Virus genome (UHGV): UHGV-0302986
Direction: 5' to 3' (one strand)
Origin: a virus
DNA: 31,756 bases
The translations under genes were made by a program, and so were the position numbers. Numbering within the stretch: the first letter of the stretch is position 1; each line of letters opens with the position of its first letter. Below, in pieces: positions 425 to 31,756 of the stretch. The notes below the pieces were generated by a model. It did no database searches. It was not told where the DNA came from and saw nothing but the letters and a program-made list of their open reading frames with translations.

Positions 425-454
425 AAATCATGCCATGCAGGCCAGAAACCGCCA

Positions 455-480
455 TTATCTAAAACCTCGGTTTACAGGAA
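455..480. repeat. gix/hix-like 26-bp invertase crossover site, left boundary of invertible segment
   Basis: TTATCTAAAACC-TC-GGTTTACAGGAA: two imperfect 12-bp half-sites around a 2-bp core, matching the remembered Gin/Hin site pattern. An inverted copy lies at 3508..3533, with 24 bp of identical flank (ACGGTAAA...) continuing inward. Confidence 0.7.
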
Positions 481-1425
481 ACGGTAAATCAGGCTTCTGG
501 CGCATTACAGAAAAACCAGAACGGCGCAGATATTCCGGGAAAAGATACCTTCACCAAAAACATTGGTGCCTGCCGCGCATATAGCGCATGGCTGAATATT
601 GGTGGCGATAGTCAGGTCTGGACAACTGCGCAATTTATTTCGTGGCTGGAGAGTCAGGGGGCATTTAACCATCCTTACTGGATGTGCAAAGGCTCATGGG
701 CTTATGCAAATAATAAGGTTATTACAGATACAGGTTGCGGAAATATTTGTCTTGCAGGTGCTGTGGTGGAAGTTATTGGCACTCGCGGCGCAATGACCAT
801 ACGCGTTACTACGCCGAGCACGTCCAGCGGTGGCGGAATTACTAACGCTCAATTCACTTATATTAATCATGGTGATGCTTACGCTCCTGGCTGGCGACGA
901 GACTACAACACGAAAAACCAGCAGCCTGCATTTGCTTTAGGGCAAACAGGACGCAGGGTCGCAAATGATAAAGCTGTTGGCTGGAACTGGAATAGCGGTG
1001 TTTATGATGCAGATATCAGTGGTGCATCGACATTAATCCTCCACTTCAATATGAATGCGGGGAGTTGCCCTGCTGTACAGTTCCGCGTGAATTACAGGAA
1101 CGGCGGTATTTTTTATCGTTCAGCGCGTGATGGTTATGGCTTTGAAGCTAACTGGTCAGAGTTTTACACCACAACACGCAAACCCTCTGCGGGGGATGTT
1201 GGTGCATATACGCAGGCAGAATGTAACTCAAGGTTTATTACAGGTATTCGCCTTGGCGGTCTGTCATCTGTTCAGACATGGAAAGGCCCCGGCTGGTCTG
1301 ACAGGTCAGGTTATGTCGTTACGGGTTCAGTTAACGGAAACCGTGATGAATTAATTGATACAACTCAGGCAAGGCCAATTCAGTATTGCATTAATGGGAC
1401 GTGGTATAACGCGGGGAGTATTTAA
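469..1425 (+). CDS. Silent alternative side-tail-fibre C-terminal cassette (promoterless; expressed only after inversion)
   Basis: The frame is open from the crossover site to the stop at 1423..1425 and contains track ORF 682..1425. Translation starts LGLQETVNQASGALQKN..., parallel to stf LGLQETVNRARNAVQKN..., and ends IQYCINGTWYNAGSI versus stf IQKYINGTWYNVVQV. An in-frame TAA at 460..462 lies in the outer half-site and would be left behind on inversion. Confidence 0.6.
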   Translation, partial: GLQETVNQASGALQKNQNGADIPGKDTFTKNIGACRAYSAWLNIGGDSQVWTTAQFISWLESQGAFNHPYWMCKGSWAYANNKVITDTGCGNICLAGAVVEVIGTRGAMTIRVTTPSTSSGGGITNAQFTYINHGDAYAPGWRRDYNTKNQQPAFALGQTGRRVANDKAVGWNWNSGVYDADISGASTLILHFNMNAGSCPAVQFRVNYRNGGIFYRSARDGYGFEANWSEFYTTTRKPSAGDVGAYTQAECNSRFITGIRLGGLSSVQTWKGPGWSDRSGYVVTGSVNGNRDELIDTTQARPIQYCINGTWYNAGSI

Positions 1426-1427
1426 CG

Positions 1428-1961
1428 ATGATGCACTTAAAAAACATTACTGCTGGCAACCCTAAAACAAAAGAGCAATACCAGCTAACAAAGCAATTTA
1501 ACATCAAATGGCTTTATTCAGATGATGGAAAAAACTGGTATGAGGAACAAAAGAATTTCCAGCCAGACACTTTGAAAATGGTCTATGACCATAACGGCGT
1601 TATTATTTGTATTGAAAAGGATGTTTCAGCAATTAATCCAGAGGGTGCAAGCGTCGTTGAATTACCTGATATTACAGCAAATCGCCGGGCTGATATTTCG
1701 GGGAAATGGATGTTCAAAGATGGCGTAGTGATAAAGCGAACTTATACCGAGGAAGAGCAGAGGCAACAAGCGGAAAATGAAAAGCAAAGCCTGTTGCAAC
1801 TTGTCAGGGATAAAACCCAGCTATGGGACTCACAGCTACGGCTGGGCATCATTTCCGACGAGAATAAACAAAAATTAACCGAGTGGATGCTCTATGCGCA
1901 GAAAGTCGAATCTACAGACACTTCCGGCCTGCCAGTAACGTTTCCCGAACAACCAGAATGA
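1428..1961 (+). CDS. tfa: Tail fibre assembly protein (cassette B)
   Basis: 177 aa; [25 protein letters not shown]...ANRRADISGKWMFKDG...LPVTFPEQPE is a paralogue of the minus-strand Tfa at 1990..2517. It lies immediately after the alternative fibre tip, as in Mu G / e14 P segments. Confidence 0.85.
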   Translation: MMHLKNITAGNPKTKEQYQLTKQFNIKWLYSDDGKNWYEEQKNFQPDTLKMVYDHNGVIICIEKDVSAINPEGASVVELPDITANRRADISGKWMFKDGVVIKRTYTEEEQRQQAENEKQSLLQLVRDKTQLWDSQLRLGIISDENKQKLTEWMLYAQKVESTDTSGLPVTFPEQPE

Positions 1962-1964
1962 GAG

Positions 1965-1991
1965 AAGGCCCGCTATCGGGCCTTAATTTTT
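1965..1991. terminator. Hairpin between convergent tfa genes, probable bidirectional terminator
   Basis: AAGGCCCG-CTAT-CGGGCCTT stem-loop followed by AATTTTT on the plus strand. Confidence 0.45.
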
Positions 1992-2517
1992 ACTCTGGTT
2001 TTTGTGGCCATTCAGGATTTGCCGTATCCACACGGCTGGCCAGAACACTGTAGCGTTCCCATGCTTCCAGTCGTGTGCGTTCCTCGTCTGTTGCCATATT
2101 CAGCCTGACAGCGCGTTCCAGCGGTTGGATGACTGATTCAGCTTCGGAAAGCAATGCGGCCTTTTGTGATTCGGCCTGTTGTTGTTGCTCGTCTGCCGTA
2201 TAAATCCGTTTAACCACAGCTCCGTCCCTAAACATCCACTTACCGGAATCATCAGCGCAGCGGTTGGCTGTAATATCTGGAACCTCAACGACGCTATAAC
2301 CTTCAGGGTTAAGCGTGGAGGCATCTTTGGTGATGGCGACAATAATATTATTTGCATCGTAAACAATCTTTATTGTGTCTGGCTGAAAGTTTTTCACTTC
2401 CTCATACCAGTTTTTTCCGTCTTCGGACCATAACCAGATAACATCAAAATTCTTTGTTAGCTGATATTGTTCTTTTGTTTTTGGATTTCCAGACTTAATA
2501 TTTTTTAAATGCTGCAT
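1990..2517 (-). CDS. tfa: Tail fibre assembly protein (cassette A, currently coupled to stf)
   Basis: 175 aa; [30 protein letters not shown]...[16 protein letters not shown]...EWPQKPE, Tfa family, directly downstream of stf. Confidence 0.85.
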
Positions 2518-2520
2518 AAA

Positions 2521-5400
2521 TTACACCTGTACGACGTTATACCATGTGCCATTGATGTATTTTTGTATTGGTCTGAATACTGCCGGATCATCGCCATCAA
2601 CTGCACCGATAATGCCAAGCCCCGTAATTGCATGACCTGATTTCTCATACATCACGCCTTTTTGCATAGTCTGAACAACACGTGTACCAAGTCGGACATC
2701 TCTCACATAACGTGAGTCAAAATTACCATAATTGCCGGGAATAACTTGCGCACCGCAAAGCCAGTTGCCATTGTTGTCCATGTACGCCTGACCATCGGTG
2801 CCATTGGCTGTCCTTGAGTTATTAATCATGTAGATGCCAAATTGCTTATTCCCCAGTCCACCAATCATAAATTTGCGATCAGCGTGGTCCTGACGAAGTA
2901 ATGCCTGCGCACCATCGGTGGATACCGCATTGCGTCCCAAAATAACATTCTGGTCACGCATATGAATCCACATGCCGGTACTACTGTTAATTGCAAAACG
3001 GTTTGCAAATATATCCCCTGTAACATCAAGACCATGCCCCATGCTTATCCGACCAGTTCTGAGATTAAGCGTAAAGGGGCGTAGTGGCCCTATACCACCA
3101 TTTTCTCCCTCATTCTCTCGTGTAGGGATGATATGCAGGCATTCTTCAGAACGACGAAAAATAGCACCAAAAGATGAATTAAATATCCTCAGTGCATTGA
3201 CTGTCGATATTTTTACTTCACTGCTGAAAAGGGCTTTAACAAGGACAGACAAAGCATCCCATTTAAGAGTCATCAGGTCTTTTGTTGTGGTGCTCTGGCG
3301 GCTTCTCCATTTGAAATATTCATTGCCGTTGTCGCCTGTTTCAAACCACATGTATGAATCAGTGTCGCTGTCGGCATTATTTTTAAAACCAATCTTTGCC
3401 CAGTCAGTATTTCTAATCCAGGCAAGGATTGAGTCGTTTTCAAAAGTAAGCCCACCGGACAAGGTATCGCCATTCTTTTGCACGGCGTTCCTGGCCCTGT
3501 TTACCGTTTCCTGTAAACCGAGGTATTCGATAACGGCAGCAACGGTCGATTTCGCAAGAATATCCCGCCCGACTTTTGTCAGGGTTGCCAGGCTGGCGAC
3601 ATCATTCCCCGTAAAATACGGAAACCTGTCTGCCGCAGTAGCAAGCCCGGCCAGCGCCGTCAGGGTGGCATCTTTCGGTTGCTTACCCGCAAGCGCGTTA
3701 GTCATGGTGGTCGCAAAATTCGGGTCGTTGCCCAGCGCCGCCGCTAACTCGTTCAGCGTATTCAGTGCGTCAGGCGACGAGTCTACAAGGGCGGCAATCG
3801 CGGCCATCACATAAGCCGTACTTGCGATCTGAGTATTATTAGTACCTTTTGGCGCAGTTGGCGTTGTTGGCGTTCCGGTCAGTGCAGGACTATTTAAGGG
3901 CGCTTTCTTGTTCGTTTCATCCATTACCGCCTTAACCGCTTTTGGTGTCGCAGCCAGCGTTTCAGACGGGCTGTTAGTGGCGCTACTGAGCTGAACCACA
4001 CCTTTTTTCGTCGTACTCGCATCTTCCAGAGATACGGCATCAGCAATATCCTCTGCCCGTTTTGCCGCTGTTTCGGCACGCGTTGCCGCGGATTCAGCAG
4101 CAACTTTGCTCTGAGATGCAGCCGTCGCACTGCCTGCCGCCTCTGATGCTTTCGTTGTTGCTGTCGTGGCACTACCTTTCGCTGCTGACGCTTGTCTGGT
4201 CGCCTCATCTTTTGAAGCAGACGCAGATGATGTCGATGACGCCGCTGAACCAGCGGACGATGCGGCTGCCGCCTTAGAGGAAGCAGCATTGTCTGCTGAA
4301 GTCTTTGCATTTGTTTCAGAGGTTTTTGCTGCAGAAGCAGACCTCGCTGCTGCAGTGGCTTGCTCAGTGGCTTCGCCAGCCTTCGTTGTGGCTGTTGAAG
4401 CGGATGATGCGGCGCTTTCTGCCGATTTTCCGGCAGCGGTGGCACTGGCTGAGGCCTGCCCGGCACTTGTTGACGCAGCACTGGCAGACGACGCAGCCGC
4501 TGTTTTTGAACCTGCCGCAGCTGAGGCGCTCTGTCCCGCTGCTGTTTCAGAAGACTTAGCGTTCGTCTCGGACGTTTTTGCCGCCTTCGCGGAATTTCCT
4601 GCCGCTGTTGCCGAGGAAGCTGCGCTACTGGCGCTCGAGGATGCGTTCGTTTCTGATGATTTTGCCGCCTCTTTTGAAGCCGCCGCATCCCGGGCTGAGG
4701 TGGCAGCTTCTGACGCTTTCGTAGTCGCGGTGGATGCAGAAGTGGCTGCTGATTGTTGTGACGCTGCAGCATTCGTTTCTGACGTTTTCGCGGCACTGGC
4801 ACTGGTAGCTGCCGCGCTTTTTGAGGACTCTGCAGCGGCAGCACTTTTTGATGCTTCAGTGGCCTTTGTTGATGCCGTTCCTGCGCTGGAAGTCGCTGAC
4901 TGAGCCGACGACGCGGCCTGTCCGGCTGACGTGCTGGCTGCGCGTGCTGAGCCTGCAGCATCAGTCGCATGGGTTGCCGCCTCACGGGCTGATGTGCTGG
5001 CATCACTGGCTGACTTCTTTGCGGCTGCCGTGTTCTGTGCCACCACGGACGCGTTACGCGCCACCTCTTCCACCATCAGCTCAAAACGGCGCAGTGCCTC
5101 CGGACGGGCATCATCCTCCGTCATGGCACCGAGAAAATCATTCAGCGTACCGGGTCAGGAATCTTCATACACTGTGATGGTCCCGGCATGTGACGGCGGG
5201 AATCCTTCCACCAACAGAATAACGCTGTACTGACCGTACTCAACGTCCATACTGTAACGCCCGGCTTCATCCGGATTTTCTGAGGCCAGCGTGTTCACCA
5301 CCACCGTGGTACTGTTACGTTTTGCTTTCAGCTGGATTGTGCAGTTCTGTACCGGTTTTCCTGTGCCGTCTTTCAGTACACCTGAAATCTTTACTGCCAT
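2521..5400 (-). CDS. stf: Side tail fibre protein Stf, interrupted by an in-frame TGA at 5155..5157
   Basis: N-terminal ORF (ATG at 5400) MAVKISGVLKDGTGKPVQNCTIQLKA...TITVYEDS matches the lambda Stf N-terminus. TGA at 5155..5157 is followed in the same frame by PGTLNDFLGAMTEDDARPEALRR... (track ORF 2521..5124, 867 aa), a long Ala/Ser/Thr-rich shaft and a C-terminal tip ending INGTWYNVVQV. Confidence 0.85.
3508..3533. repeat. gix-like crossover site inside stf, right boundary of invertible segment
   Basis: Minus-strand reading TTATCGAATACC-TC-GGTTTACAGGAA is an inverted copy of 455..480 and encodes stf residues IEYLGLQE. Confidence 0.7.
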
Positions 5401-28240: not shown

Positions 28241-29323
28241 ATGAAAAAATTAACAGTGGCAATTTCTGCTGTAGCTGCATCAGTACTGATGGCGATGTCT
28301 GCTCAGGCAGCTGAAATTTATAATAAAGACAGTAACAAGCTGGATCTGTACGGGAAAGTTAATGCTAAGCACTACTTCTCCTCTAATGATGCAGATGATG
28401 GTGATACTACTTATGCCCGTCTTGGCTTCAAAGGTGAAACCCAAATCAACGATCAACTGACTGGTTTCGGTCAGTGGGAATATGAATTCAAAGGCAACCG
28501 CGCTGAATCTCAAGGTTCCTCCAAAGACAAAACCCGTCTTGCATTTGCAGGCCTGAAATTCGGTGACTACGGCTCAATCGATTACGGCCGTAACTACGGT
28601 GTAGCATACGACATCGGTGCGTGGACTGACGTTCTGCCAGAATTCGGTGGCGATACCTGGACCCAAACAGATGTATTCATGACTGGTCGCACCACAGGTG
28701 TTGCAACTTATCGTAACAACGACTTCTTTGGTCTGGTTGATGGCCTGAACTTTGCAGCTCAGTATCAGGGCAAAAATGACCGAAATGAAGTAACTGAAGC
28801 TAATGGCGATGGTTTCGGTTTCTCAACTACTTATGAGTATGAAGGATTCGGCGTGGGTGCAACCTATGCTAAATCTGATCGCACTAATAATCAGGTTATC
28901 TACGGTAACAACGGTCTGAATGCTTCTGGTCAAAATGCTGAAGTATGGGCAGCTGGTCTGAAATATGATGCGAACAACATCTATCTGGCCACCACCTATT
29001 CTGAAACCCAGAACATGACTGTTTTTGGTAATAACCATATTGCCAACAAAGCACAAAACTTCGAAGCTGTTGCACAATATCAGTTCGACTTCGGCCTGCG
29101 TCCATCCGTTGCTTACCTGCATTCTAAAGGAAAAGACTTGGGTGTTTGGGGTGATCAGGACCTGGTTGAATATGTTGATGTAGGTGCAACCTATTACTTC
29201 AACAAAAATATGTCCACTTTTGTTGACTACAAAATCAACCTGATTGATAAGAGCGATTTCACGAAAGCATCTGGCGTTGCTACCGATGATATCGTTGCTG
29301 TAGGTATGGTTTACCAGTTCTAA
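28241..29323 (+). CDS. nmpC: Outer membrane general porin (OmpC/NmpC/Lc family), prophage moron
   Basis: 360 aa; signal peptide [59 protein letters not shown]-terminal ...VGMVYQF. It lies opposite to and between Q and the lysis genes, preceded by a ~540-bp AT-rich region. Confidence 0.9.
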
Positions 29324-29511: not shown

Positions 29512-29895
29512 TTAATTAGAGTTATTAACAACGATATCCATCTCTAACCGGATATCTAATGCCATTAACATCCCTTCAATTATGCCCTCAGCCTTCTGTA
29601 ACCTTTTCCCGATATAACCATCAGAGCAGCAATGCTTACCTGCCAGTGACATGAATGTCATACCGACTACATAATAATCTACTAATAAATCGTGCAAATC
29701 GCTGTTGTTCTTTTTCAGACGGGCCATGCACCCGCAAATGATCATCGCGTCATCGTCACAACATTGCGGGCGAGATTTTACTTTTGAAGTAATTAATCCC
29801 TTAAAACCGGCGGCAATGGACGACCAGGTCACATCTTCATGATTATTAGCCGCCCACGCTCCCCAACGCTCAAGAACCATCTGAATATCACGCAT
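29512..29895 (-). CDS. quuD: Late gene antiterminator Q (DLP12 QuuD / phage-82 type)
   Basis: [62 protein letters not shown]... (127 aa from the internal Met of the track ORF). Confidence 0.85.
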
Positions 29896-30767: not shown

Positions 30768-30930
30768 GATTCCTCCTTGCTGCCAGTCGCAACCATTTTT
30801 TATCAACCAGGCTGGCGGTATATCCGAGCAGTGTTGGTATTTCGGAAGGCTTCAGCTCCGGTTTACGCTTACGACGATCTGGTACTCTGTAGATGTGTCC
30901 GTTCATGACACGAATAAGCGGTGTAGCCAT
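30760..30930 (-). CDS. ninE: NinE-like small protein
   Basis: 56-aa ORF below the track cutoff, translated by hand as [56 protein letters not shown]; its ATG overlaps the ybcN stop (TAATG). Confidence 0.6.
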   Translation of the reverse strand: MATPLIRVMNGHIYRVPDRRKRKPELKPSEIPTLLGYTASLVDKKWLRLAARRNHG

Positions 30931-31385
30931 TACGCCTCCTGCTTGTCGCGGAGCAGCTGGAACTCGCAGCTCTGCGGAATAGTCAGGTGGCAGCCAATAT
31001 TCACCGCCCAGGCTTCAACCTTACACAGGAAGACATACATCTCTCCGGTATCAAGATCGGAGGTATGGCGTAACGACTGGATAGTGGTGATATCACCGGT
31101 TACAACATCAACCAGGTCTTTGGTTTCATAACCGAGATATGTGTGTTTGAGAGCATCTTTTACCCAAGCTGGAGTAGCGAACGTTTTACCCCTGCTGATG
31201 AGGTATTCACTGATTTCGCTGTACCACATGTGGCTGAGTGCATTCTGGGAAAGACTGCGTTTCTCACGCCACGGTTTAAGCACCATGCGAAAGCATTTGC
31301 CCTCCTCCAGATAAGGCTGGATCTGCCGACCGATAGCGGTGAAGTTACCGCGATGTAATTTGATGCCATCTTGTGGGAGATTCAC
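30930..31385 (-). CDS. ybcN: YbcN-like protein (DLP12 nin-region protein; DNA base-flipping family)
   Basis: 151 aa; (GTG start) [62 protein letters not shown]... Confidence 0.8.
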
Positions 31386-31483
31386 GCTTCACCTCCGCAG
31401 AGGTCAAACGCTGGATACAATATATCGCAGGTGCATTTCTGCATCTGTGGAGGGAGAAGAGAGTTTGGATTGTGTGTGCGCAT
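31382..31483 (-). CDS. Small ORF, possibly YlcH-like
   Basis: 33-aa ORF translated by hand as [33 protein letters not shown]; its stop overlaps the ybcN GTG start (GTGA). Naming is from memory and uncertain. Confidence 0.35.
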
Positions 31484-31619
31484 AAACGTCCCCGTTTAGC
31501 GCAGAAGTCACCGGAGTTGTTCAGGCTCCGATGACATGATTATGGCGAGTTGATTATCGCAAATCAAAGGTTTTAATTGTGCTTTATTCCTTCAAGCGTT
31601 GCCTTCATACCAACCAAAG

Positions 31620-31756
31620 GGTAATGACTCCAACTTATTGATAGTGTTTTATGTTCAGATAATGCCCGATGACTTTGTCATGCAGCTCCACCGATTTTGA
31701 GAACGACAGCGACTTCCGTCCCAGCCGTGCCAGGTGCTGCCTCAGATTCAGGTTAT
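31620..31756 (-). mobile_element. insB: IS1 terminal region (partial, runs off the window edge), including the 3' end of insB on the minus strand
   Basis: GGTAATGACTCCAACTTATTGATAGTGTTTTATGTTCAGATAATGCCCGATGACTTTGTCATGCAGCTCCACCGATTTTGAGAAC... matches the remembered IS1 terminal inverted repeat and adjacent sequence; the minus strand encodes ...[18 protein letters not shown]-stop (stop at 31636..31638). Confidence 0.8.

What the first reader, a model, noticed from the sequence alone, without database searches (positions are those of the whole stretch)
31484..31756. IS1 end about 135 bp upstream of the nin-region genes
From 31620 to the window edge the sequence matches the IS1 terminal inverted repeat and the 3' end of insB on the minus strand. 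The element sits where the prophage early/replication region would be expected to continue, so it may have disrupted or deleted early genes and left the prophage non-inducible while the late and accessory genes are preserved. It also brings an outward-facing IS end next to ylcH/ybcN.
Basis: partly seen in the sequence, partly recalled or inferred. Interest (0 to 1): 0.45.

Follow-up and report, generated by a model that had tools for sequence, protein, structure and literature searches.

The report
IS1 end at contig edge
The last 137 bases of the window are the true right end of an ordinary IS1 insertion sequence that landed in a small accessory gene of a lambda-like E. coli prophage. The window stops there only because the metagenome assembler could not cross the repeat.

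Summary
Window 31620-31756 is 137/137 identical to annotated IS1 copies: the right inverted repeat plus the last 39 codons of insB on the minus strand. It lies 136 bp upstream of ylcH.

Bases 1-31619 are collinear with a lambdoid prophage at the lambda attachment site (bio/ybhC) of E. coli PSS-13 and ES6, with 13-15 differences. In those and 11 other loci the sequence continues into a 118-aa ORF of unknown function (phrog_12412). So IS1 sits 47 nt from that ORF's 3' end, in cargo DNA about 3.7 kb past replication gene P, not in O, P or cI.

The window edge is the exact end of ENA metagenome contig ERZ27270028:k141_20157, so it is an assembly break in a repeat.

What lies beyond cannot be read. 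ES6 keeps a complete early region. Several other relatives carry IS1-bounded deletions of it. The truncated ORF that a simple insertion would leave is absent from a 15-billion-protein collection. I lean slightly towards a deletion or rearrangement (about 0.55) over a simple insertion (about 0.4).

No credible IS1-flank hybrid promoter exists (best 7 of 12 matches). This is an ordinary, known element and of low interest.

The parts
31620..31756 (-). Right end of IS1. The element is oriented with its transposase genes on the minus strand. It is cut off by the end of the source contig.
   Evidence: 137/137 identity to annotated IS1A and IS1B copies. The contig ends at 31756.
31620..31642 (.). IS1 right terminal inverted repeat (GGTAATGACTCCAACTTATTGAT...). 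It abuts prophage DNA.
   Evidence: Sequence read directly. The same end is seen at the other IS1 copies. The extent of about 23 bp is taken from established knowledge of IS1.
31635..31756 (-). The last 39 codons and stop codon of insB (IS1 transposase C-terminus).
   Evidence: Translation. The homologous full CDS matches PF03400.
31573..31619 (-). 3' remnant (14 codons, the stop codon and 2 nt) of a 118-aa prophage ORF (WP_000379700.1, phrog_12412, function unknown) that IS1 interrupts.
   Evidence: Collinearity with PSS-13, ES6 and PM4-5 annotation. Uninterrupted sequence in 13 loci. PHROG hit at 5e-71 and no Pfam family.
31611..31619 (.). CAACCAAAG, the 9 bp that would be duplicated on the far side if this were a simple IS1 insertion.
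   Evidence: Inferred from the 8-9 bp IS1 target duplication (PMC5009759; example tacagcgta in PSS-13). The far side was not observed.
31484..31572 (.). Native intergenic DNA between the ORF remnant and ylcH. It holds one promoter-like site on the minus strand (TTGATT-17-CATAAT, 31567-31539) at chance level.
   Evidence: 1 site found against 0.8 expected.
31382..31483 (-). ylcH-like 33-aa ORF, the first nin-side gene after the IS1.
   Evidence: WP_072130332.1.
30930..31385 (-). ybcN (NinB/Orf-family, 151 aa).
   Evidence: RefSeq annotation of identical DNA. phrog_72 at 2e-52.
29512..29895 (-). quuD, the late-gene antiterminator Q. It is the last gene of the early rightward operon and the one an upstream polar insertion would affect.
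   Evidence: Annotation of identical DNA. The polarity logic comes from lambda (PMC10695390).

Best explanation
What is shown. A genuine IS1 copy sits at a target inside a small AT-rich accessory ORF (118 aa, function unknown) of a lambdoid prophage integrated at the lambda attachment site of an E. coli strain sampled in a gut-type metagenome. The ORF lies between the replication module and the nin/Q genes. Its last 14 codons remain in the window. IS1 is oriented so that a transcript coming from the early rightward promoter would enter at IRL, run through insA/insB in the sense direction, and leave at IRR towards ylcH-ybcN-ninE-ybcO-rusA-ylcG-Q. The window ends 137 nt into IS1 because the assembler (k=141-style contig name) cannot resolve a repeat that is present in dozens of copies in related genomes.

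What is inferred. (1) Coding damage is trivial, because one accessory ORF is hit. (2) A 768-bp polar element between P and Q could lower Q expression on induction unless the phage's antitermination reads through it. (3) The far side is unresolved. I put about 0.55 on the IS1 bounding a deletion or rearrangement, so that the rest of the ORF is not next to it, and about 0.4 on a simple insertion with a 9-bp duplication and an intact early region. (4) The IRR end does not create a usable outward promoter.
For: IS1 identity and boundary.

Prophage identity and gene order.

Interrupted ORF and its lack of known function.

Contig end equals window end.

AT-rich target: 30-38% GC just right of the site against 52.8% for the whole window. 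This matches the known IS1 preference (PMC5009759).

Recent event: absent from all 5,426 complete E. coli genomes, including PSS-13 and ES6, which differ from the window at only 13-15 positions.

Lean towards a non-simple far side: 12 predicted forms of the truncated ORF are absent from the protein collection that holds the source contig, while the intact 118-aa form is on more than 1000 contigs. IS1-bounded early-region deletions occur in relatives.

Polarity on Q from blocks in the nin region: PMC10695390.

No hybrid promoter. The requirement for a correctly spaced -10 is stated in PMC8764528.
Against: Nothing contradicts the identification.

For the far side, the closest complete relative ES6 has every early gene. 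PSS-13's nearby IS1A in ybcK is a simple insertion with a 9-bp duplication. In mutation-accumulation lines, IS1A insertions outnumber IS1A deletions about 5 to 1 (233 against 43; PMC5009759).

The absence of the predicted remnant protein is negative evidence. It depends on gene calling and on short contigs having been kept.

Polarity on Q is extrapolated from lambda. No N-like gene was identified in the relatives' immunity region, so read-through capacity is unknown.
Confidence: 0.9

Rival explanations
1. Sub-question, far side: simple insertion. IS1 is complete (768 bp), flanked by a 9-bp duplication CAACCAAAG. The rest of the 118-aa ORF, P22AR_C, ybcK, emrE, P, O, cro-like, cI-like, the recombination genes, xis and int follow as in ES6. 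The prophage is then essentially whole, apart from possible polarity on Q.
For: ES6 and PSS-13 differ from the window at only 13-15 positions and carry the full early region. PSS-13's IS1A 1.9 kb away is a simple insertion with a duplication. IS1A insertions outnumber IS1A deletions 233 to 43 in MA lines, and IS1 hops locally (PMC5009759). A variant strain (GCA_048649865.1) has a contig break 4 bp from this site with the early region intact on the other side.
Against: I predicted the truncated product at 107 aa, with the TGA formed at the duplication/IRL joint. I also predicted variants for 7-, 8-, 10- and 11-bp duplications, alternative starts, and ends trimmed at the contig edge. None is in the 15-billion-protein collection, which does contain the source contig and several same-lineage assemblies.
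Confidence: 0.4
2. Sub-question, far side: IS1-bounded deletion or rearrangement. The junction at 31619/31620 was made by IS1 intramolecular transposition (adjacent deletion or inversion), or by recombination between this copy and another IS1 in the same orientation. The rest of the ORF, and perhaps the whole early region with int, is then gone or moved. One concrete candidate partner is the IS1B next to ybhD, in the same orientation, 19.4 kb to the right in PSS-13. That event would remove everything from P22AR_C to ybhJ.
For: The predicted remnant of the ORF is absent. The same prophage family at the same chromosomal site shows IS1 joined to DNA near xis/int with the early region missing in VE-T9/XJ5.2, 2017.15.02CC and L014. 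In CP101010.1, IS1 joins the ybhC side directly to the porin gene. PSS-13's IS1B has the right orientation. IS1 is documented to make deletions and inversions by intramolecular transposition, leaving an element without direct repeats (PMC9330008).
Against: There is no direct observation. The insertion is young, being absent from relatives that differ at only 13-15 positions, which favours a one-step event. Whether the source strain has PSS-13's IS1B is unknown, and ES6 lacks it.
Confidence: 0.55
3. Assembly artefact. The IS1 tail is a chimeric extension of the contig, and no IS1 lies at this position in any cell.
For: The source is a metagenome assembly, and the IS1 part is shorter than the k-mer implied by the contig name.
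Against: A 137-nt overhang into a repeat is what a de Bruijn assembler leaves at a true repeat boundary. By geometry, contigs from three other assemblies that are 99.98-100% identical to the window over their overlaps (L035 100%, L022 one mismatch, L038 two mismatches and one gap) stop 51, 76 and about 123 nt into the same IS1 piece. Related genomes carry about 40 IS1 places.
Confidence: 0.03
4. Regulatory activation. The IRR end supplies a -35 box that, with a -10 in the flank, forms a hybrid promoter driving ylcH-ybcN...Q constitutively.
For: IS1 ends carry an outward -35, and hybrid promoters have been documented (PMC8764528, PMC9330008).
Against: The best combination here is TTGGAG-18-TATGAA, 3+4 of 12 matches, without the conserved final T. 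The scan's threshold is not met at the junction. From my own knowledge, the better -35 (TTGGCA) is at IRL, which faces away from these genes.
Confidence: 0.05

Closest known systems
IS1 (IS1A/IS1B isoforms of E. coli; IS1 family)
   Same: The terminal 137 nt are identical to annotated IS1A and IS1B copies. The IRR sequence, the InsB C-terminus and the AT-rich target are all as expected.
   Different: Nothing differs in what can be seen. Only 18% of the element is in the window, and the isoform cannot be assigned because IS1A and IS1B are identical over this stretch.
Lambdoid prophage at attB-lambda of E. coli PSS-13 and ES6 (DLP12-like nin-Q-porin-lysis module with lambda-like head and tail genes)
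   Same: Bases 1-31619 are collinear with 13-15 differences and the same gene order.
   Different: Those two genomes lack this IS1. PSS-13 instead has IS1A in ybcK, and ES6 has none in the prophage. The window also has a TGA at codon 82 of the side-tail-fibre gene.
IS1-truncated prophage remnants at the same site (VE-T9, XJ5.2, 2017.15.02CC, CP101010.1)
   Same: In VE-T9, XJ5.2 and 2017.15.02CC, IS1 lies upstream of ylcH with IRR next to ylcH, in the same orientation. In VE-T9 the insertion is within 2 bp of this one relative to the shared left flank.
   Different: These are independent events in diverged alleles (95.8% flank identity, different right flanks). In them the far side is known to be near xis/int. 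In CP101010.1 the IS1 is not upstream of ylcH at all: it sits between ybhC and the porin gene, the nin genes and Q are missing, and its orientation was not checked. For the window the far side is unknown.
IS5 in nmpC of K-12 prophage DLP12 (from my own knowledge)
   Same: An insertion sequence inside cargo DNA of a DLP12-type Q-lysis module.
   Different: A different IS and a different gene. Here the porin gene is intact (28241-29323, 360 aa).

Membership tests
IS1 insertion sequence | Terminal inverted repeat of IS1 at the element boundary | tested here: met
   GGTAATGACTCCAACTTATTGATAG... starts at 31620, exactly where 13 uninterrupted loci diverge.
IS1 insertion sequence | insA/insB transposase genes (DDE_Tnp_IS1) | tested here: inconclusive
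   Only the last 39 codons of insB are in the window. They are identical to annotated copies. The homologous full CDS matches PF03400. The rest lies beyond the contig end.
IS1 insertion sequence | Full length of about 768 bp with a second inverted repeat (IRL) | not testable with these tools
   The contig ends at 31756. No collection held the junction.
IS1 insertion sequence | 8-9 bp target-site duplication | not testable with these tools
   The far side is not available. Right-junction patterns were not found. The predicted truncated ORF products are absent.
IS1 insertion sequence | Preference for AT-rich targets | tested here: met
   30-38% GC in the 250 bp to the right of the site, against 52.8% for the window. 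PMC5009759.
IS-generated hybrid (fusion) promoter | Outward -35 in the IS end and a -10 in the flank at 16-18 bp | tested here: not met
   The best candidate has 7 of 12 matches and lacks the final T. The scanner finds nothing at the junction.
IS1-mediated adjacent deletion or IS-IS recombination deletion | IS flanked by non-contiguous DNA without direct repeats, with DNA missing relative to relatives | not testable with these tools
   Only one junction is visible. The indirect evidence is (no remnant) and the precedents.
Lambdoid prophage (lambda-like late genes, DLP12-like nin/Q/lysis) | Collinear late operon, lysis cassette, Q and nin genes, integrated at attB-lambda | tested here: met
   Collinear with annotated PSS-13 and ES6 prophages between bioA/ybhB and ybhC.

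The most novel reading that the evidence does not exclude
The boundary just upstream of ylcH may be a recurrent, orientation-biased IS1 target in attB-lambda prophages. Two independent insertions lie 2 bp apart, a third assembly break of unknown cause lies 4 bp away, and two more insertions lie about 70 bp further out. All four IS1 copies have IRR facing ylcH. Such insertions would seed repeated loss of the early half while the Q-porin-lysis-late half is kept, which would be a reproducible route of prophage domestication rather than random decay.
Probability: 0.1. Interest if true: 0.35.

Novelty: already known. Interest (0 to 1): 0.1.

Why it matters
It matters little beyond annotation. The window edge should be read as an assembly break, not as a biological prophage end. 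The prophage should not be scored as either 'truncated' or 'complete' from this contig alone. If the IS1 does bound a deletion of int, xis, cI, O and P, the late genes, the lysis cassette and the OmpC-like porin are locked into the chromosome. That is the usual way cryptic prophages such as DLP12 arise. The clustering of independent IS1 insertions at this spot is a small addition to knowledge of IS1 target choice.

Tried and rejected
1. I looked for the exact left junction in 5,426 complete E. coli genomes, IMG/VR, GTDB species representatives and JGI metagenomes. There was no hit.

2. I searched for the predicted right junction (IRL, 6-12 nt, then AAATGTTTAGC...) in genome and metagenome contigs. 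There was no hit.

3. I looked up a 33-aa ORF that spans the junction. It is not on record.

4. I tried to reach the ends of same-lineage isolate contigs (JADIHZ010000013.1, CBDGWX010000052.1) through protein look-ups. The YbcN, PSS-13-portal and ES6-YbcK alleles are too common, or the tool reads only the longest contigs. Those junctions therefore rest on geometry, not sequence.

5. Adjacent deletion from PSS-13's IS1A in ybcK is rejected. That would place IRL, not IRR, next to the nin side.

6. Homology between IS1 ends and the target: CTCCAACTT, a 9-nt match to the IRR, lies 12 nt right of the site. About 3% of random 80-bp prophage windows do as well, and the VE-T9 allele lacks it. It does not explain the clustering.

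7. An IHF-like site (AATCAAAGGTTTT) lies in the shared left flank but has one mismatch to the consensus as I recall it. I did not pursue it.

8. I looked for an N-type antiterminator in ES6 between the repressor gene and kilR. No ORF of suitable size is there, so read-through of IS1 polarity cannot be argued either way.

9. The review PMC98933 is not held.

Full report
**Observation**

The last 137 bases of the window (31620-31756) begin with GGTAATGACTCCAACTTATTGATAG. They are 137/137 identical to the IRR end of IS1 copies annotated in RefSeq genomes:
- IS1A and IS1B of E. coli PSS-13 (L003 7831-7967 and 24675-24811);
- two copies in VE-T9;
- one copy in L006.

The minus strand of 31635-31754 encodes the InsB C-terminus ...[15 protein letters not shown]. 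The homologous full CDS is PF03400 DDE_Tnp_IS1.

The boundary is exact. Thirteen uninterrupted loci read ...CATACCAACCAAAG|AAATGTTTAGC, and the window reads ...CATACCAACCAAAG|GGTAATGAC. The ylcH-like ORF is 31382-31483 (minus strand), so the IS1 end is 136 bp upstream of it.

**Context**

Window 1-31619 is gaplessly collinear with E. coli PSS-13 (NZ_AP027704.1 3071678-3103296; 15 substitutions). It also matches ES6 with 13 substitutions and one indel. This is a lambdoid prophage at the lambda attachment site between bioA/ybhB and ybhC.

From left to right the window holds:
- an invertible tail-fibre segment, stf and lom;
- J to Nu1, a complete lambda-type tail, head and terminase set;
- ylcI and a DUF1398 gene;
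- the Rz-R-S lysis genes;
- an intact OmpC-like porin;
- Q (quuD), ylcG, rusA, ybcO, ninE, ybcN and ylcH.

In ES6 the prophage continues with a 118-aa ORF, P22AR_C, ybcK, ylcJ, emrE and a small ORF. Then come P, O, ydaT, a cro-like gene, an S24 repressor, kilR, gam, bet and exo. After several small ORFs come xis, int and ybhC.

**What IS1 hit**

The insertion point lies 47 nt from the 3' end of the 118-aa ORF (WP_000379700.1). That ORF matches only phrog_12412, of unknown function, and no Pfam family. It is cargo DNA about 3.7 kb promoter-distal to P, not a replication or immunity gene. The site is the left edge of an AT-rich stretch (30-38% GC against 52.8% for the window). This fits the documented IS1 preference for AT-rich DNA, with 8-9 bp duplications and no motif (PMC5009759).

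**Why the window stops**

The window's portal allele is on only six contigs in the public gene index, all 20-50 kb long. The one shown is ENA ERZ27270028:k141_20157 (33,028 bp). It is identical to the window over its last 21,108 nt and ends exactly at window 31756. The left end of the window is the first base after the stop codon of the flanking diguanylate-cyclase gene. So the window is the provirus part of a metagenome contig, and its right edge is an assembly break 137 nt into a repeat.

Three further assemblies end 51, 76 and about 123 nt into the same IS1 piece. I inferred this from contig lengths and offsets and did not see the end sequences.
- ERZ28599944 scaffold_315 (L035) is 100% identical to the window over its overlap.
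- GCA_015730745.1 (L022) has one mismatch in 19.6 kb.
- GCA_965259545.1 (L038) has two mismatches and one gap in 11.9 kb.

The junction is therefore real and shared by a small lineage. It is absent from all 5,426 complete E. coli genomes, so the event is recent.

**What lies beyond**

This cannot be read, and I could not find the other junction.

Evidence for a simple insertion:
- ES6 has the full early region.
- PSS-13's IS1A in ybcK, 1.9 kb away, is a clean insertion with the duplication tacagcgta.
- In mutation-accumulation lines IS1A made 233 insertions against 43 deletions, and it hops locally (PMC5009759).
- A 98.3%-identical variant prophage (GCA_048649865.1) has a contig break 4 bp from this site with the early region intact behind it.

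Evidence for a deletion or rearrangement:
- A simple insertion would leave the ORF truncated to 107 aa, because the 9-bp duplicate plus IRL creates GTT GGG TGA.
- That sequence is absent from a 15-billion-protein collection. So are eleven variants covering 7-, 8-, 10- and 11-bp duplications, alternative starts, and ends trimmed at the contig edge.
- The same collection contains the source contig and holds the intact ORF on more than 1000 contigs.
- In the same prophage family at the same chromosomal site, IS1 is joined to DNA near xis/int with the early region gone in VE-T9/XJ5.2, 2017.15.02CC and L014. In CP101010.1 IS1 joins the ybhC side to the porin gene.
- PSS-13 carries an IS1B in the same orientation 19.4 kb to the right, next to ybhD. 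It is a concrete partner for such a deletion.
- IS1 is known to make deletions and inversions by intramolecular transposition (PMC9330008).

An adjacent deletion from PSS-13's ybcK copy is excluded, because it would place IRL, not IRR, at the junction. I put about 0.55 on deletion or rearrangement, about 0.4 on simple insertion and about 0.03 on artefact.

**Likely consequences (inferred)**

The hit ORF is dispensable-type cargo. In lambda the whole nin region is dispensable, but transcription blocks there abolish plaque formation through polarity on Q (PMC10695390). From my own knowledge of the classical gal and lac work, IS1 is polar in both orientations, and lambda N-modified polymerase reads through such insertions. 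I found no N-sized ORF between the repressor gene and kilR in ES6, so read-through here is an open point.

The outward-promoter idea fails. The best IS1/flank pair is TTGGAG-18-TATGAA at 7 of 12 matches, and the scanner reports nothing at the junction. Hybrid promoters need a correctly spaced -10 (PMC8764528).

**Side observation on target choice**

Four independent IS1 copies lie upstream of ylcH in different mosaic alleles: the window, VE-T9/XJ5.2, E03 and 2017.15.02CC. All have IRR facing ylcH. VE-T9's copy is 2 bp from the window's relative to the shared left flank, although its right flank is unrelated. A 9-nt match to the IS1 end sits 12 nt right of the site, but that occurs in about 3% of random windows and is missing from the VE-T9 allele. 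This suggests a local hot spot, most simply explained by the AT-rich boundary. It is not established.

**Verdict**

This is a real, ordinary IS1 junction at an assembly break. The inference about lost early genes is plausible but unproven, and the promoter suggestion is unsupported. Novelty: already known. Interest: low.

Noticed in passing
window 5155-5157 (minus strand; stf, 2521-5400): The side-tail-fibre gene has TGA at codon 82, where PSS-13 and ES6 have CGA. Gene callers split it into 81-aa and 867-aa products. The 867-aa product is on record in only two draft assemblies. The 81-aa product is in 351 blocks of the collection, including DLP12-site prophages, so the stop at this codon is widespread. 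Lambda does not need side tail fibres to form plaques.
   Followed up: partly
window 451-3537 (with 206-400): This is an invertible tail-fibre segment. In GCA_047852925.1, GCA_019373795.1 and GCA_038716245.1 (L016, L020, L024) this 3.1-kb block lies in the opposite orientation, with a 42-bp overlap at 3496-3537. It carries alternative fibre C-termini and two opposed tail-fibre-assembly genes. The only recombinase gene beside it is a 64-aa resolvase-domain remnant (206-400), so inversion would need an invertase supplied in trans.
   Followed up: partly
window 31540-31625; L002 6640-6725; L031 end: IS1 insertions cluster here. The VE-T9 IS1 is 2 bp from this one in a diverged allele and in the same orientation. 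A contig of GCA_048649865.1 ends 4 bp away. E03 and 2017.15.02CC have IS1 about 70 bp further out, again in the same orientation.
   Followed up: partly
window 4233, 5157, 9916, 11075, 17247, 20812, 21928: All seven positions where the window differs from both PSS-13 and ES6 are G:C to A:T transitions in the window's lineage.
   Followed up: no
window 28241-29323: An intact 360-aa OmpC/NmpC-type porin gene sits on the opposite strand between Q and the lysis cassette. It is lysogenic-conversion cargo. From my own knowledge, the K-12 DLP12 counterpart nmpC is disrupted by IS5.
   Followed up: no
L003 24611-26353 (PSS-13) against L027 17300-22001 (ES6): PSS-13's IS1B next to ybhD replaces ybhI, ybhH and the start of ybhD, which are present in ES6. 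This is an IS1-adjacent chromosomal deletion just outside the prophage in the closest relative.
   Followed up: no
L045 8059-9039 and L048 8059-9039: In two other relatives an IS5-type transposase (DDE_Tnp_1, 326 aa) is inserted between P22AR_C and the 118-aa ORF. The same cargo interval therefore collects different insertion sequences.
   Followed up: no
L055 (CP101010.1) 919-2928: In this complete genome IS1 lies between ybhC and the porin gene. The nin genes, Q and the whole early region are missing, while the lysis and late genes remain. Four similar places were not shown by the tool.
   Followed up: no
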